Positions 14,873 through 62,580 of a DNA stretch of 64,000 nt are shown in pieces. Under the pieces are notes generated by a model. That model worked only from the letters and a program-made list of their open reading frames with translations. It made no database searches and was not told the DNA's origin. The DNA lies in the NCBI RefSeq assembly GCF_009914755.1, contig NC_060938.1, one strand, 5' to 3'. This DNA is from the human T2T-CHM13v2.0 reference genome, Homo sapiens. The first letter of the stretch is position 1; every line of letters starts with the position of its first letter. Position numbers and translations under genes: made by a program.

Positions 14873-15940
14873 CTGCTTAAGAACCAGAATCCTGACTTCA
14901 GACGTTTATGCTGGAGCTTCACATATGTTTCAGAACCCATCGTTCAACAAAAACCTCAGATTCATCTTAAGAGCCCTTGAGAAAAGGACGCCTCTATGAC
15001 ATCACTGTCCTACCCGATGAGTTTCAGTACCATGAGCAGATGACATGTGACCCAAGTACGAAGTGAGCAGGTTCTCTAAACAAGCTATAAATTTGAGCAG
15101 CACACTGAGGTTATATTAGCATAGGAATTTATCACGTAAGTTATATGTTTGAACAACAGAACAGACTTAACATACTGCTGTATCTTTAACTATCATTTTT
15201 TGTTAACAAGACAAAAGAATTTACAGTTTCTGCCAACTGTTTTGTTGGCCCCTAATACCACGATTAGCTGTTGCCAGGCAACCATGAAGCATGCTTCCTC
15301 CCAAATCAGGAAGACCCACTGCTAAATCTAGACTAATTATAAAAGGAGACAAATATTTAAAAGCCTTATATTTATGAAGGATTTGGGAGGTGCCCTGATA
15401 AGAATGATTCTTATTAAACGGATCTAACTAAATACAATGCATATGTCTGCAGTGCATTGTCACAGGTTTTGTAAAACAATTTAGGAAAACTGAATGTTTC
15501 TGCAACTTTCCTAATTTCCCTCAATAGGATACTAAACAAAACCAGGTGTTTATAATTTGTGGAAGCATGTCTTTTGCCTACTTCTCTAAGAATAAGGATG
15601 AAAAGAAGCAGCTGAGAGACCTAAGCCTTTTAAAATACATATATATTTGCAAAGAAATTATGAGAACACCACCACCATTTTCACAACCCTTACAGAGCTA
15701 TGTGCATATAATGCTCAGCAGCTTTCCTCTCAAGTTTCTGCCTTTGTCTGCATTCTCAATTCCCTCTATTTCAAGAGTCATTTAGAATTCTCTGTGTGGA
15801 GAAGAGTTTTTCAGTCCCTGAGGCGAGCCTCCTTGCCATCAGCACTAAACTGCTGGTGGCAGGCTCCAACAACCGGAGTTCTAATGTCTAGAGACCCTGC
15901 TTCATCCCCAAGAGGGGAGCTGAAGAAACAGAAAAGCTCA

Positions 15941-56771: not shown

Positions 56772-57230
56772 TGCTATGGGGTGATTTATGCCTCCCCAAA
56801 ATTCCTACATTGAAGATCTAGCCCCCAGTACATCTGAACATGACCTTATTTGGGAACAGGGCCATTGAAAATGTAATTAGTTAAATAGGATGAATTATTA
56901 CGGGAGAAAGATGGGCCTCTAAGCCAATACGACCAGTGTGTCCTTACAAGAAGGGAAAATTTGGACATAGACACCACATGGAGAAAACGAATGCCAAGTG
57001 AAGGTGAAGGCAGAAATCAGAGTGATGTTTCGACAGGCCAAGGAAGGCCAAAAGCATTCCAGCAAAATGCCAGTAAACCACCAGAAGCTAGGAGAGAGGG
57101 GTGGAACAGACCCTCCCTCACAGCCCACAGAAGGAACCAACCCTGCCGACACATTGGTCTCGGACTTCCAGCCTCCAGAACCTTGAGACAGTAAGTTTCT
57201 GTTGTTTAAGTCACTTGGTTTGAAGTACTC
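56772..57230 (+). mobile_element. MLT1B/C-like MaLR LTR
   Basis: GACCTTATTTGGGAACAGGG...CCACCAGAAGCTAGGAGAGAGG...GGACTTCCAGCCTCCAGAAC. Confidence 0.82.
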
Positions 57231-57346
57231 CACGCTGAGCTCTGCACTTCGATTAAAAACAATTCACAAATTTGGTATCAACAAAGCAGGTGTGGAAGAA
57301 CATCCTAACATACATTCAAAAGGGCACTTTAGAAAACAGAGGCATG

Positions 57347-57678
<332 letters not shown>

Positions 57679-59107
57679 TTAGCATGGTATTTGGATGTGA
57701 GCAAGGTCTGGGCAGTGCTCTCAAATGTCTCGCTTTTCCCGCAGCATTTCCAGCCACCTGCAGCTCAGTTCAGAGTGACATTTGCCAAGCACACCTGCAA
57801 GTCCTAGCAATAACCGCCCATCTAGTATAATCACCATCTTCTTCAGGATGCTAAGTACCAGCCCCATGAAAGCCAAGCACTTCCCAGGTACCCCTCACAG
57901 CGATCCAGCAAGGGGCTGACGGGTGATTCCCCGCATCACAGTGGACCCAGCCAGATCACGTCAATTCGGCATTTTGGGGTCCCTGTTTAATGACTCGGTG
58001 TTTCACTTCCATCTTCTCTAGGTCATGTCAACAAGTGGCCTGATGGCTTAGAATTGAACCAAATGCCACATCACTGTTAAGACACAGAAATATTGTACAA
58101 TTACCCAGTGTTCAGTGGCTTCAGTGCAATTTCACACACTAGAGGATCCTGAAGCAAACTCTCAGCTTTCAGATGAAGGGATGACAGTCCCCAGGAAAGA
58201 GAAAGTGACTTGTTCTCATGGACTTAAGGCATGGAAGAGGCAGACTAGAATCTCATCTGTCATCTCCCTCCACCGCCAGTGACCTCTGTGGAGGTGAAAT
58301 CTAAGCACCGCATGGGCAGAAGCAGAAACTGGTTTTTTTTTTCCCCTCAGTCAACTGGGGATAAAGGCTGGAGGTGACGGAGTGGGGTCTGAAATATTCC
58401 TTCGGAAATGATTTTCATTACAAAAGCTCTGGTTCATCTGCATTTTTATGTCTATATTAAAAATCAAATGAAGTAATTAAGCTAAGGCCAGCTCAGAATG
58501 CCTCTCGCCTGAATATGCATTCCTGTTCCAACCCCCAGAGCTCCTCTATAATCCTTCGAATTATTAAATAATTACTGTGTTTCCCTCGGGGTCACATTTG
58601 GCAACAAAATACTGGTCTAAAGGAACCAATGACATGACCCAGTGAGTAACACTCATGTTCTTAACTTCCTAGAAGCAAAGGGAGATGAAATACTTCTGAG
58701 GTGCAGAGTGGAAAACCCAGAGAAGGGTATTCCATGCAGCTTGGAGAGTCGGGGGGTGGGGGTAGAATGACAAAGAAACATGAGAATCTGGGAAATATTT
58801 CAATAATTAGTGTCACGTCCTCCTTCACCAACCTTGTACATCGGCAATTCTCCACTCCAATCCTGGTTCTCTTCCATTTGGGGAGTGGCTATGGCCACAA
58901 GGAGAAAACCAAGCATATGGCTCTGTCCTTCTGGACATGTCTACTATGTTGGCTGGGCTGCTTTGGAAAATCCCACTTTCTCTCCTACAGCTATATGACC
59001 TCAAGTTGTCATTTCGAATAAAGTATGCTTCCACTGATTTTTATGAACACAGACAAAAGCTGCTACAACCTTCCCCCCCACACACCAAACCTTTCAAATC
59101 AACTGTA

Positions 59108-59281
59108 GTTGCTATGTAAGGTTATTTGTTTCTAAGGCAACAGTGTATATCTAAGTACTAATGGCCTGTCCTTTTGCCAGGCAACAAACAGCCTTGTGAT
59201 GCAACTGCACCTGTCTCGGCTACGCGTTACTATGGAGACGCTCCAGTTGCTATGGGTACCATCACGCTAATCGCCTAGCAA
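59108..59281. promoter_or_regulatory. Homotypic RFX X-box cluster with (G)ACGC motifs; candidate antisense promoter or enhancer
   Basis: GTTGCTATG 59108, GTTTCTAAGGCAAC 59128-59141, TTTGCCAGGCAAC 59173-59185, GTTACTATGGAGAC 59226-59239, GTTGCTATGGGTAC 59246-59259, CCTAGCAA 59274-59281. Six CpGs in 59217-59273. Confidence 0.7.
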
Positions 59282-59863
59282 AGGCAGACATACAGCAGTC
59301 TTCTCAGAGAGCCCAGCTGTTCCTCCCTGTCTCTTGCTGAAGACTGATTGTCTAGGGCCTGTGATGGAATGCTTCTCAACTGAGATGCAGAAGAACTTCA
59401 TTAATGCTATTTCAGAAGATCACTTTGTGCTCCCTCCTGCAGAACAAACAGCAGACTAGGAAAAGAATCTGCAAAGAAGTGGACTGTAAAATTCCTGAAG
59501 TCTATGACATCATGCCATCCCTAATTAACCTCAACTTGCAGTCCAAGGATAATTCCTCTTAACTAGGTGGTTACGATAGAAACATTTCTATACATTTTTA
59601 AATATTTTTTTGTAGAACTGAGGAATGCACTTCAAATTCAAGTACTATGTATTCATAAAAATTGATCTTAAAAATTTGGTTCTGATTATTTGGCTCTCTT
59701 TTGGAATCTAACATTAAGACACTTTTTAAAAAAGTGACAGGCTACTTACCCTCCCTTCCAATGATATATTTGTAAAAATGGTACCCATGACCTTACTGTC
59801 TCAAACAAATGGGCATGTGAGGAGGATAAAATGTCTCTATTGTTTCTACTGTTCTCCTTGAAG

Positions 59864-60168
59864 AAGCAAAGACCAAGTAACCACAACAAAATGGTCACCT
59901 GGGAGCACCGTCTACATGGAGACTGCGAAAGACAACAGTGGGGACAACTGAGTGAGCCTCCACTGAATGTCTGCAGAGACCGGCCAGATGAGGGGATGAT
60001 GGAGTTGCCTGCTTGACTCGTTCCTGTACTTTTATCCCAACAAAACATGACACACACCGAGATGTGAAAGCTGTCGACTTTTCTTTGTAAATGTTTCTAC
60101 CCAGGAAGACATGATTTCACCCACCATGAAGCCTTCTGGAAGCACATTCCTCTGACGCTGCAGCAGCG
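59864..60168 (+). ncRNA. Candidate exon of a transcript antisense to FOXN3
   Basis: Long pyrimidine tract 59833-59859, then AAG/AAG acceptor (59861-59866) and donor CG|GTAAGG at 60169. It lies downstream of the X-box cluster. No transcript evidence is available from the sequence alone. Confidence 0.4.
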
Positions 60169-60346
60169 GTAAGGTTTGTAGGAAATACAACAGTGGATAT
60201 GCCTCCTAATAATACTTAATTTCTTTCTCATTTACCTGCAGTTATTTTTAAAATCTCGTACGGCCTATTAAATTAATTTCCGCGCAGGTCTCTGCCAAAA
60301 TAATGCCATTTCAGTAGACCAAAAAAAAGAAGTCTGAATTGCTTAC

Positions 60347-60483
60347 CTTTGATATGCCTGAGGACAGGTGGGAGGTGTATTGAACACGTGTGGGTGTGGG
60401 TGATAAGGTGTCTTTTTCAAAGCCTGAATTAGATTTTGTCTATACTCTGGGTCTATGCACCACAACGACCCTTTCCCAATACT
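60347..60483 (-). CDS. FOXN3: FOXN3 internal coding exon (137 nt, phase 0 to phase 2): C-terminal end of the forkhead domain and following linker
   Basis: Acceptor TTTTCTTTGCAG (AG at 60485-60484) and donor AG|GTAAGC (60346-60341). Translation [45 protein letters not shown](S) contains the FOXN2/3 GKGSLW wing motif and matches human FOXN3 as I recall it. Confidence 0.97.
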
Positions 60484-62580
60484 CTGCAAAGAAAATTAAA
60501 ATACAAAGGCATTAATAGAGAATTATTAAGTACTTTGCAATAAGTAGATGTATAGCTATTATCACTTCTTTATTTTTAAAAGCTTCTCATTTGTTGACTG
60601 TTTGCCAGCCTTAAATATTATACTGACAGTAGAACTCCATAAAATGCACTTCAATCTTACTTGTATTATGTTTGATAGGCAAAATGAACATATTATTACC
60701 AGGTTATGGTGATACAACAATATTACAATTTTCATACCCAAACTACCAATAAAATGAGAATCTCATTGTTTTTCAGCGTCAACATTGAAGAACACGTGCA
60801 TTCTCTTCTAAAAATGAATTTAACTGTGTCAGATTTCTAAAGTTTGGGGAAAAAAAAAAGAGGGCCGAGACACCCCCAAAAGTCCATCTCTGCTCCAGAA
60901 ATTTAGTTATGTTTTAAAACCATATGACATCGGGATCATTTTATAAAAACAGAAAAGTAATCCCCTTGTTTCTTTCCAGCTTACTCACAAAAGAATGACA
61001 TTTACTCTTGGAATAGAATTCTGTAATTACCTTCCCTAAGCAACAAAAGAACTCAGGCAGCAATGGTAAAGCCCAACTCAGAATCCACTATTTATTTTTT
61101 GGATTCCTCAGTTCCCAGCAATCGACTCCAGCCATTAAGAGTTGAATCTTTAGAAGTCAAACTTTAAAATGCAAATTTTCTAAAACCGTTCTGTGGAGAG
61201 AGGGAGGCTTCCTGTGAGGCCCACTTCCTGTGAAGCGTTTGGTCTATGGACAGCCTATTTTTAAAAATGTAAGTCCTTCCTTTGAGGCCCCCCGGAACTG
61301 GCAGCAGGCCGACGGGCAATCGTTCCTCTGGCCGCACACTTTCAAGTGACCGAATGTACCCAAACTGTTTGATAAGGTCATTTGTAAATATTTACTGATT
61401 TGCAGAGAAAAGAAGTTAAATTACATAAACCCGTGCCCACCTCCTGCTTTCAGCCAACAGTAAGATTGATGTTGTCCTCCAACATTTAGAAAGCAAACAA
61501 GAAGCTGTTTAACTAACATGGGGGAAGGGGACAATCCAAGAAAATCCCACTGAAGGAGCTGTAAAAACAAGTTACTCCTAAAATCTTTTTAAAAGTTTAA
61601 AAAAATCTGTGTTTCATCATCAGTTCACCCGAGTAGTTTCCTTACAAACATTATTCACAGAGCCCATTAAAATACTTTATTATCAACAACATCAGCAAGC
61701 CGTGCAACTGGAATTAACTCTTTCTGGTGCAATGAGAATAGGAGAATTGCTCAAAACCACAGCCAGGGGCTGGAACCTCTGACCACTCTAGTCACCCACC
61801 CCCACGTGCAGGCCTGACCCCAGACACAGGTCAGAGTCTGGCTGGACACTCTATGCTTAAACATCAATGTTCTCAGTTTAACCAACCGGATGTTTAAAGA
61901 CCTGAAAGATTTCAACTTTGGAAAATTCAACATTCCTACGTGTTTTTTCCTTTCACGCACACATTCTCAAACCCAGAATAGTTCAGGGGGAGCAGTGAGA
62001 CTTTGCAAGTAAATCAGGCGGGCCACTCAATAATCTGCCCTGGAAGCTTCATCCCTTCCTTTGGAAAAGAGCTGTGCAGAAGAAAGCCAAAAGCTAAGGA
62101 GTGGAGAGGTTTGGGGGGAAAGACAGGAGACAGGTAACTACCAAATTTGGAAAACATAAAACAAACCACCAAATCCTGTCAACAGTAGGGGTCTGGCCTG
62201 ATTCCATCAAAGGCTCCCGGTGGAGCCCTGGGCCAGTGGGACCTGCCTTTCTGATCCCTTGCACCCAAGGCTCCAAACCAGCAATAGCTACACTGAGGGC
62301 CATGGCTGACATGTGACCCAAACATTTCTGCAATGATATTGTCTCAATTCTGGAAACCCAATGGCTTTTGTTCTCATCATGGTGGCTTTCAGGGTGGGAC
62401 CATTTAATCTTAACGCTACAAAAATAATATGACAAAGAAATGAAGGACAACCGGTTGGCCTTCTCAGGGAAATAACCGTAAGCCAAGAACGTGGTTTCTC
62501 CTAATCCTAACCTAAGTGTTTGTTTACTGTACCCTTGTATACCCATATTAATGTATGCTACCATTTAAAAGCTAAGCAGA

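What the first reader, a model, noticed from the sequence alone, without database searches (positions are those of the whole stretch)
59108..59281. Helically phased cluster of RFX X-boxes hidden in a FOXN3 intron: candidate cilia-programme promoter
Seen: four near-complete X-boxes (GTTTCTAAGGCAAC 59128, TTTGCCAGGCAAC 59173, GTTACTATGGAGAC 59226, GTTGCTATGGGTAC 59246) plus half-sites (GTTGCTATG 59108, GCAAC 59201, CCTAGCAA 59274) within about 175 bp of repeat-free DNA. The sites fall in pairs exactly 20 bp apart (59108/59128, GCAAC 59181/59201, 59226/59246), about two helical turns. Nothing else in the 64 kb comes close to this density. Established: RFX1-4 bind GTNRCC(N0-3)RGYAAC, and promoter-proximal X-boxes are the hallmark of ciliary and sperm-flagellum genes. 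Inference: this is an RFX2/3-driven promoter 1.1 kb from the forkhead-encoding exon. From memory, unverified, an antisense lncRNA at this locus (RP11-356K23.1/AL357093.2) is listed as a ciliated-cell marker, and this cluster would explain that specificity.
Basis: partly seen in the sequence, partly recalled or inferred. Interest (0 to 1): 0.8.

Follow-up and report, generated by a model that had tools for sequence, protein, structure and literature searches.

The report
RFX-site cluster upstream of FOXN3-AS3
A short stretch inside a FOXN3 intron carries an unusually dense group of binding motifs for the cilia-gene activator RFX, so it is probably a switch for a neighbouring antisense RNA made in ciliated cells or for FOXN3 itself, but nothing here shows that RFX actually binds it.

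Summary
The density is real. There are 5 perfect RFX half-sites in 144 bp, and the next best place in the 64 kb has 3. Three near-complete X-boxes lie within 133 bp. Shuffles reach these values in 28 of 1000 and 4 of 2000. That is unusual for one window but would give roughly 100 chance clusters genome-wide. The DNA is single-copy.

Context carries the argument. The cluster lies 681-854 bp upstream of the annotated + strand start of FOXN3-AS3. RP11-356K23.1, a FOXN3-associated chr14 lncRNA, is in print as a ciliated-cell marker, but I could not prove it is FOXN3-AS3. FOXN3 is now published as an RFX3-tethered repressor of cilia genes, and mouse Foxn3 has RFX3-bound intronic enhancers. Forkhead-type motifs and E-boxes sit among the X-boxes.

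The three 20-bp spacings are only nominally unusual. X-box pairs genome-wide show no helical periodicity.

Verdict: a probable RFX-dependent regulatory module, a new member of a known kind. Occupancy, conservation and the target gene are untested.

The parts
59108..59120 (.). Site A: perfect half-site GTTGCT with a weak partner (GTTGCTATGTAAG, 2 mismatches)
59123..59129 (-). Forkhead (FKH) type motif TATTTGT, abutting X-box B
   Evidence: consensus RYMAAYA taken from PMC4168999
59128..59141 (.). X-box B, GTTTCTAAGGCAAC. It has 1 mismatch to GTTRCYNNRGYAAC and matches RYYRYYN1-3RRNRAC exactly on the other strand.
59173..59185 (.). X-box C, TTTGCCAGGCAAC (13-mer, 1 mismatch)
59184..59190 (+). 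FKH type motif ACAAACA, overlapping the end of X-box C
59201..59213 (+). Lone GCAAC inside CAACTG, followed by the E-box CACCTG (59208)
59222..59267 (.). Four ACGC/GCGT cores (59222, 59224, 59238, 59264), including GACGC at 59237, within a group of 6 CpGs that flank X-boxes D and E
59226..59239 (.). X-box D, GTTACTATGGAGAC. The left half is perfect and the right half has 2 mismatches. It matches RYYRYYN1-3RRNRAC exactly.
59246..59260 (.). X-box E, GTTGCTATGGGTAC(C). The left half is perfect. It has 2 mismatches with a 2-bp spacer and 1 with a 3-bp spacer.
59274..59281 (+). Weak half-site CCTAGCAA (AGCAAA, 1 mismatch)
59314..59319 (.). E-box CAGCTG
59962..60168 (+). FOXN3-AS3 exon 1 (RefSeq NR_188029.1). 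The GT donor at 60169 is present. No AG precedes 59962, so that position is a start and not a splice acceptor.
   Evidence: hub annotation
60347..60483 (-). FOXN3 coding exon, lying inside intron 1 of FOXN3-AS3. It translates to [15 protein letters not shown]... and has no Pfam match on its own.
   Evidence: hub annotation

Best explanation
The stretch 59108-59281 is a homotypic cluster of RFX sites. Two are strong (59128, 59173) and three are weaker (59108, 59226, 59246). Forkhead-type (FKH, ACGC/GACGC) and E-box motifs sit among them, in single-copy intronic DNA.

The most likely function is an RFX-dependent regulatory module. In cells with high RFX2/RFX3 and a forkhead partner (FOXJ1 or FOXN4) it would switch on the + strand antisense lncRNA FOXN3-AS3, whose annotated start lies 0.7-0.85 kb downstream. 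It would act as an upstream promoter element or proximal enhancer, not as a core promoter.

Shown here: the motifs, their statistical rarity, single-copy status, position, and the published expression of RP11-356K23.1. Inferred: RFX occupancy, the identity of the target transcript, and the forkhead partnership.
For: - Five perfect half-sites in 144 bp, against 3 at the next best place in 64 kb.
- Shuffles reach this in 28 of 1000 for half-sites and 4 of 2000 for three full sites.
- It is the only place in 334 kb of FOXN3 with 2 or more near-complete X-boxes within 175 bp.
- The DNA is single-copy.
- By the hub annotation the cluster is at -681 to -854 from the FOXN3-AS3 start. That falls inside the -1000 to +500 promoter region used for RFX1-3 ChIP-seq (PMC7498320, passage).
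- RP11-356K23.1 (ENSG00000258752, chr14, FOXN3-associated) is a listed ciliated-cell marker and falls together with cilia genes.
- A second, relaxed X-box 15-162 bp from a first one is reported for motile-cilia genes (PMC4168999, passages).
- FKH motifs abut X-boxes B and C. GACGC overlaps X-box D. Four ACGC cores lie in 43 bp, the only such place in the window, reached by 3 of 1000 whole-window shuffles and 49 of 5000 local shuffles.
- The 6 CpGs in 56 bp give an observed/expected ratio of 0.89, against 0.27 for the window.
Against: - There are no occupancy, accessibility, CAGE or conservation data here.
- No site is a perfect palindromic X-box, and the only perfect one in the window is at 15270.
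- Published X-boxes lie within about 500 bp of the start, and often about 200 bp. This cluster is 681-854 bp away.
- Extrapolating the shuffle rates to 48,707 windows gives about 97 chance clusters genome-wide by the stricter statistic and about 1,360 by the half-site statistic.
- RP11-356K23.1 = FOXN3-AS3 is unproven.
- A second X-box cluster 50 kb away, with a strong splice donor about 220 bp downstream, could instead be that lncRNA's promoter.
- RP11-356K23.1 is also listed as a 'new neuron' lncRNA (PMC8037018), so it is not strictly ciliated-specific.
- The ACGC cores may partly reflect a CG flank preference of RFX itself (recalled, not tested).
- My statistics were chosen after the fact.
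Confidence: 0.45

Rival explanations
1. The cluster is chiefly an intronic enhancer of FOXN3 itself and a node of the RFX3-FOXN3/FOXN4 circuit. RFX3 with FOXN4 or FOXJ1 (plus a bHLH factor such as ASCL1) would activate it. FOXN3, tethered through RFX3, would repress it, giving negative feedback. The antisense RNA would be a by-product or unrelated. It could be the human counterpart of one of the two mouse Foxn3 intronic enhancers.
For: - bioRxiv 10.1101/2024.10.28.620684 (abstract, section 8, methods sections 17 and 24, and passages of the discussion read) reports two Foxn3 intronic enhancers bound by Foxn3, Rfx3 and Foxn4 in E16 mouse retina.
- In enhancer 2 the RFX site is needed both for activation and for repression by Foxn3. 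Its motif set is RFX, two E-boxes, FKH and FHL-N.
- The same vocabulary occurs here: X-boxes, CACCTG 59208, CAGCTG 59314, FKH at 59123 and 59184, GACGC 59237.
- Foxn3 RNA rises when Foxn3 is deleted (PMC12304973, passages).
- RP11-356K23.1 also marks newborn neurons.
Against: - Mouse enhancer 2 is described as having a single Rfx3 motif, whereas five X-box-like sites occur here.
- Other candidates exist in the gene: the perfect X-box at 15270, the cluster at about 109,560, and a GC-rich perfect X-box at about 125,955.
- E-boxes and FKH motifs are common and not enriched on their own here. Generic FOX motifs number 3 in 500 bp against about 1.9 expected.
Confidence: 0.25
2. The cluster is a chance accumulation of X-box-like words with no regulatory role.
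For: - The shuffle rates (4 of 2000 and 28 of 1000 per 64 kb) imply about 100 to 1,400 such clusters genome-wide by chance.
- No site is a perfect X-box.
- There are no functional data.
- The statistics are post hoc.
- The apparent inverted repeat 59104-59130 / 59183-59209 is not unusual: 69 of 875 tiles score as high.
Against: - It sits inside a gene of the RFX network, within 1 kb upstream of an annotated lncRNA start.
- It coincides with the window's only dense ACGC-core group and with a CpG-retaining patch in non-repeat DNA.
- It has the top density in 334 kb of real DNA.
Confidence: 0.17
3. The 20-bp (about two helical turns) spacing is functional. RFX dimers on the same face of the helix would bind cooperatively and give a threshold response.
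For: - Three same-orientation pairs are exactly 20 bp apart. Random placement gives 3 or more equal spacings with probability 0.0027 (4+3 sites) or 0.0098 (5+3 sites).
- The five site centres fit a period of about 10.6 bp (R 0.911), reached by 623 of 20,000 random sets.
Against: - The choice of anchors and sites was post hoc. Two of the three pairs involve a degenerate or lone half-site.
- Genome-wide, 67 non-tandem head-to-tail X-box-like pairs show no periodicity. These are 36 with spacing 15-45 and 31 with spacing 46-76, after I dropped tandem arrays, duplicated copies, both-strand duplicates and this locus by hand. The maximum R is 0.191 for periods 10-11.5, reached by 1299 of 5000 random sets.
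- Ten further matches were not listed, so they were not counted.
- Among the 10 papers listed (of 12 found) holding RFX, X-box and helical, no title concerns phased X-box arrays (listing only).
Confidence: 0.1

Closest known systems
X-box promoters of motile-cilia genes (for example HEATR2/DNAAF5 and DYNC2LI1; PMC4168999, passages read)
   Same: They have an RFX X-box plus a second, more degenerate X-box 15-162 bp away, with FOX motifs nearby, and their targets are expressed in ciliated cells.
   Different: Those boxes lie within 500 bp of the start, often at about -16 to -200, include one near-perfect palindrome, and are shown to be conserved and RFX3-bound. Here there are five imperfect sites 681-854 bp upstream of a non-coding RNA, with nothing shown about binding or conservation.
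Mouse Foxn3 intronic enhancers 1 and 2, bound by Foxn3, Rfx3 and Foxn4 (bioRxiv 10.1101/2024.10.28.620684; abstract, section 8, methods sections and discussion passages read)
   Same: They lie in an intron of the same gene and use the same motif vocabulary (RFX, FKH, FHL, E-boxes). The RFX and forkhead sites are close together: a 30-bp probe holds both in the mouse, and here they abut or overlap.
   Different: Enhancer 2 is said to have a single Rfx3 motif. Orthology cannot be checked because the coordinates are in a closed supplement. The mouse work concerns retina, not multiciliated cells, and does not mention an antisense RNA (0 occurrences of 'antisense' or 'lncRNA').
RFX1-3 co-occupied sites in ependymal cells (PMC7498320, passages)
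   Same: That paper infers that RFX-bound regions hold one site or 2-3 closely spaced sites. It defines promoters as -1000 to +500, a range that includes this cluster.
   Different: Five sites spread over 150 bp is more than the usual 1-3 within 50 bp. Whether this locus is in their peak lists could not be read: the supplement was cut when stored, and the two passages shown were motif names.

Membership tests
RFX (X-box) target regulatory region of the cilia programme | Contains a sequence matching the X-box consensus | tested here: met
   59128 and 59226 match RYYRYYN1-3RRNRAC exactly. 59128, 59173 and 59246 have at most 1 mismatch to GTTRCY-N0-3-RGYAAC. No JASPAR matrix was available, so there are no PWM scores.
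RFX (X-box) target regulatory region of the cilia programme | X-box close to the transcription start (within about 500 bp; -1000 to +500 in the broadest usage) | tested here: inconclusive
   The cluster is at -681 to -854 from the RefSeq start at 59962 (hub annotation). That is outside the 500-bp usage and inside the -1000 to +500 usage. No CAGE data were available.
RFX (X-box) target regulatory region of the cilia programme | RFX occupancy in RFX-high cells | not testable with these tools
   No ChIP, CUT&RUN or ATAC tracks are on hand.
RFX (X-box) target regulatory region of the cilia programme | X-boxes conserved across species | not testable with these tools
   No vertebrate genomes other than this one are held. 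CpG retention is only indirect evidence.
RFX (X-box) target regulatory region of the cilia programme | Target transcript enriched in ciliated cells | tested here: inconclusive
   This is true in print for RP11-356K23.1. Its identity with FOXN3-AS3 is not established. It is also listed for newborn neurons.
Foxn3 intronic enhancers bound by Rfx3/Foxn3/Foxn4 | Lies in a FOXN3 intron and holds RFX, FKH, FHL and E-box motifs | tested here: met
   Hub annotation; (GACGC 59237, CACCTG 59208, CAGCTG 59314, FKH 59123 and 59184).
Foxn3 intronic enhancers bound by Rfx3/Foxn3/Foxn4 | Orthologous to mouse enhancer 1 or 2 | not testable with these tools
   The coordinates and primers are in Supplemental Table 5 of the preprint, and bioRxiv supplements are closed.
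Helically phased homotypic site array | Site spacing in multiples of the helical repeat, beyond chance | tested here: inconclusive
   Local tests give 623 of 20,000 and 0.0027-0.0098, and both are post hoc.
Helically phased homotypic site array | The same phasing recurs at other X-box pairs in the genome | tested here: not met
   67 non-tandem pairs give a maximum R of 0.191, reached by 1299 of 5000 random sets (data). The site definition is crude, and control counts (21 and 44) show that many pairs are chance.

The most novel reading that the evidence does not exclude
A double-negative feedback switch. In multiciliated cells, high RFX2/3 with FOXJ1 or FOXN4 fires this multi-site, high-threshold X-box array and drives FOXN3-AS3 antisense through the FOXN3 exon at 60347-60483. 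That exon lies in intron 1 of the antisense gene. This would damp production of FOXN3, the RFX3-tethered repressor of cilia genes, and lock in the cilia programme. In non-ciliated cells FOXN3 would sit on the same array through RFX3 and its ACGC sites and keep the antisense RNA off.
Probability: 0.1. Interest if true: 0.75.

Novelty: new member of a known kind. Interest (0 to 1): 0.5.

Why it matters
FOXN3 has just been shown to brake the cilia gene programme by docking on RFX3. If an RFX-driven element sits inside FOXN3, next to an antisense RNA that marks ciliated cells, it would link activator and repressor in one circuit. It would also give a concrete, small target (175 bp, five boxes) for testing how cells decide between no cilium, a primary cilium and many motile cilia.

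On present evidence it is a well-placed motif cluster, not a demonstrated element. In the library, FOXN3-AS3 occurs in 1 paper, a gene table, and RP11-356K23.1 in 6. I read passages of 5 of those 6, and in each the name appears only in gene lists or tables. I did not open the sixth (PMC10517020). The searches FOXN3+RFX3+X-box+ciliated (0 papers) and FOXN3+RFX3+cilia (8 papers) turned up no description of this human element.

Tried and rejected
- **Loose pattern.** GTNRCNNNRGYAAC with up to 2 mismatches gave 249 matches against 220 expected, which is too loose to be informative.
- **Tandem duplication as the origin of the 20-bp pairs.** TRF found nothing. The 59226/59246 copies share little beyond the X-box itself.
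- **Inverted repeat 59104-59130 / 59183-59209** (27 nt, 70% complementary). It is not unusual: 69 of 875 tiles score at least as high.
- **Interspersed repeat or segmental copy.** Rejected.
- **Paralogy with the second FOXN3 cluster.** The best alignment is an 18-mer scoring 26, below the top background scores of 30-35 (the 15 printed of 167 control chunks).
- **Structured RNA.** There is no Rfam match at or near gathering score in 58000-61000. The 3 matches have E-values of 0.2-0.9, all outside the cluster.
- **A + strand splice donor between the cluster and 60300,** which would suggest a closer first exon. None was found with at most 1 mismatch to MAG|GTRAGT.
- **Generic FOX motif enrichment.** 3 in 500 bp against about 1.9 expected, so not enriched.
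- **MYB-like YAACKG.** 3 in 300 bp against about 0.3 expected, but two overlap RFX half-sites, so this is not independent.
- **Linking ENSG00000258752 to FOXN3-AS3.** I tried two phrase searches and read the table format. This was inconclusive, because the rows lie beyond the held text.
- **Co-expression with cilia genes in brain (PMC11288953).** No usable statement was found.
- **Foxn3 in the RFX ChIP supplement of PMC7498320.** Of 61 occurrences, only 2 passages were shown, and both were motif names.
- **Pfam on the FOXN3 exon.** No match for the 45-residue piece. Its GKGSLW..DP resemblance to the end of a forkhead domain is recalled, not tested.

Full report
**1. What is in the sequence**

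I scored sites with the consensus GTTRCY-N0-3-RGYAAC. The cluster then holds:

| Site | Sequence | Mismatches |
|---|---|---|
| 59128 | GTTTCTAAGGCAAC | 1 |
| 59173 | TTTGCCAGGCAAC | 1 |
| 59246 | GTTGCTATGGGTAC(C) | 1 with a 3-bp spacer, 2 with a 2-bp spacer |
| 59226 | GTTACTATGGAGAC | 2 |
| 59108 | GTTGCTATGTAAG | 2 |

Sites 59128 and 59226 fit the looser published consensus exactly. So 'four near-complete X-boxes' is really two good sites plus three sites that have one perfect half and one weak half. The only perfect X-box of the window is isolated at 15270.

**2. Is it more than chance?**

- The window has 110 perfect half-sites. Five lie in 59108-59251, and the next best place has three.
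- A maximum of five or more in 175 bp arose in 28 of 1000 whole-window and 28 of 1000 block-wise dinucleotide shuffles.
- Three full sites with at most 1 mismatch inside 175 bp arose in 4 of 2000 shuffles. Five sites with at most 2 mismatches arose in 53 of 2000.
- In 334 kb of real FOXN3 sequence (the window plus L006-L032) this is the only place with two or more near-complete sites within 175 bp. It also has the highest half-site density, and the runner-up has four.

The cluster is therefore unusual for its neighbourhood. Scaled to 48,707 windows of this size, however, the shuffle rates predict about 100 (strict statistic) to about 1,400 (half-site statistic) such clusters by chance. The motifs alone do not prove function, and I chose the statistics after seeing the data.

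**3. Not a repeat, not an RNA**

- The own-genome search with 401 bp returned only the locus itself.
- The paired-box pattern is unique in the genome.
- There is no tandem repeat.
- A sensitive BLAST against the 334 kb found nothing beyond the locus itself.
- No Rfam family comes near threshold.
- An apparent 27-nt inverted repeat flanking boxes B and C is not unusual: 69 of 875 tiles score as high.

**4. Helical phasing**

Locally, three same-orientation pairs share an exact 20-bp spacing. Random placement gives that with probability 0.0027 to 0.0098, depending on which sites are counted. The five site centres fit a period near 10.6 bp (R 0.911), reached by 623 of 20,000 random sets. Both tests are post hoc.

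To ask whether phasing is a general habit of X-boxes, I searched the whole genome for head-to-tail pairs of GTTRCYNNRGNNAC.

- With gaps of 1-31 there were 110 matches against 21 for the reversed control.
- With gaps of 32-62 there were 95 against 44.
- Most matches are minisatellites or duplicated copies. After I removed those by hand, together with both-strand duplicates and this locus, 36 + 31 spacings remained.
- Ten further matches were not listed and were not counted.
- The short range alone leans toward 10.5 bp (Rayleigh p about 0.024; 1017 of 20,000 after scanning the period). The long range does not.
- The combined set shows no periodicity. The maximum R is 0.191 for periods 10-11.5, reached by 1299 of 5000 random sets.

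The phasing claim is therefore unsupported as a rule and only nominal at this locus.

**5. Surroundings**

By the hub annotation, FOXN3-AS3 starts at 59962 on the + strand. The sequence has no AG before that base and has a GT donor at 60169, which is consistent with a true first exon. The cluster thus lies at -681 to -854.

No good + strand donor lies between the cluster and 60300, so nothing points to a nearer first exon. The FOXN3 exon at 60347-60483 lies inside intron 1 of the antisense gene. It translates to [15 protein letters not shown]... and has no Pfam hit on its own.

Inside the cluster there are further motifs:

- FKH-type motifs abut X-boxes B and C (59123, 59184).
- E-boxes CACCTG (59208) and CAGCTG (59314) are present.
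- GACGC (59237) overlaps X-box D.
- Four ACGC/GCGT cores fall within 43 bp (59222-59267). This is the only place in the window with three or more within 50 bp. It was reached in 3 of 1000 whole-window shuffles, and in 49 of 5000 shuffles of the segment itself, which keep its CpG content.
- These cores account for 4 of the 6 CpGs of a CpG-retaining patch, with an observed/expected ratio of 0.89 against 0.27 for the window.

ACGC/GACGC is the FHL motif reported for FOXN3-bound sites (PMC12304973; preprint). One caveat, from recall only: RFX sites may themselves prefer CG flanks, which would explain some of these cores.

**6. Literature**

- RP11-356K23.1 is ENSG00000258752 (PMC5356355, passage).
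- It is on chr14 and assigned to FOXN3, and it is the most down-regulated lncRNA (1221-fold) in serous ovarian cancer versus fallopian tube (PMC5979786, passages).
- It falls together with SNTN, CFAP52, CFAP221 and other cilia genes (PMC6826756, table passage).
- It sits in a ciliated-cell marker list beside SNTN and TMEM231 (PMC10357887, table passage).
- It is also listed as a 'new neuron' lncRNA (PMC8037018, table passage).

I could not prove that it is FOXN3-AS3. Each name occurs once in PMC12519442, whose table gives one Ensembl identifier and one symbol per row. The relevant rows lie beyond the held text, and two phrase searches failed.

The most important context is recent. FOXN3 represses cilia genes and their activators (PMC12304973, abstract and passages). 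It does so through a motif that docks on the RFX3 dimerisation domain, and 81% of Foxn3-bound regions are also Rfx3-bound. Two intronic enhancers of mouse Foxn3 are bound by Foxn3, Rfx3 and Foxn4. In one of them the RFX site is required for both activation and repression (bioRxiv 10.1101/2024.10.28.620684; abstract, section 8, methods sections 17 and 24, and discussion passages).

**7. Reading**

- *Most likely (0.45):* an RFX-dependent module that drives FOXN3-AS3 in RFX-high, FOXJ1/FOXN4-positive cells, acting as an upstream promoter element or proximal enhancer.
- *Serious rival (0.25):* an intronic FOXN3 enhancer of the RFX3-FOXN3/FOXN4 feedback circuit. The two are compatible.
- *Pure chance (about 0.17):* made less likely by the position in a gene of the RFX network, next to a lncRNA start, and coinciding with the ACGC group.
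- *Phased cooperative binding (about 0.1).*

**8. Comparison and novelty**

The cluster works like the X-box plus FOX regulatory regions of motile-cilia genes and like the mouse Foxn3 enhancers. Membership of either is not established: distance to the start is borderline, and occupancy, conservation and orthology are untestable here.

It is a new member of a known kind. Its interest lies in the circuit it suggests: an RFX-driven antisense RNA across the gene of the RFX-tethered cilia repressor.

Noticed in passing
L010:5560-5625 (window coordinate about 109,560-109,625; outside the window, same FOXN3 intron region): A second X-box cluster lies 50 kb away. It has AGTAAC, a perfect GTTGCTAAGGCAAC, and GTTGCTATGGAGAC 43 bp further on: four perfect half-sites in 53 bp. 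A strong + strand splice donor GAG|GTAAGT lies about 220 bp downstream (109,846), and no RefSeq gene is listed there. It looks like an X-box promoter with a first exon and could be the true start of a ciliated-cell lncRNA. This locus and the finding are two of about 40 distinct head-to-tail X-box pair loci in the whole genome.
   Followed up: partly
window 15270-15282: The only perfect X-box of the window, the palindromic 13-mer GTTGCCAGGCAAC, stands alone. It is a candidate for a single-site RFX element, such as the mouse Foxn3 enhancer described as having one Rfx3 motif.
   Followed up: partly
L012:1840-1975 (window coordinate about 125,840-125,975): A GC-rich stretch holds a (CG)n/ACGC run, CCAAT-like boxes and a perfect X-box with CG flanks (GCGTTGCCGGGCAACGG). 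It lies about 1.1 kb upstream of FOXN3-AS1 (127,073 +) and looks like a CpG-type promoter carrying an X-box.
   Followed up: no
G000:C1:21026190-21026266; G000:C19:43323882-43324327; G000:C5:150826365-150826803: The genome-wide pattern search turned up a 21-bp tandem array of GTTGCTATGGTTAC units on chr1. It also found two loci (chr19, chr5) that each hold several X-box-like pairs within a few hundred bp. What they are was not examined.
   Followed up: no
window 59100, 59202, 59244: Three MYB-like YAACKG words (CAACTG/CAGTTG) fall in 300 bp, against about 1 per kb in the window. Two of them are simply an RFX half-site followed by TG, so they are not independent of the X-boxes.
   Followed up: partly
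window 57000-58000 and 61200-61400: These stretches are GC-richer (0.5-0.55) with CpG groups (7 CpGs per 100 bp at 57311, 6 at 57901 and at 61291). They flank the cluster and lie near the annotated silencer (61091-61140). They may be further regulatory elements.
   Followed up: no
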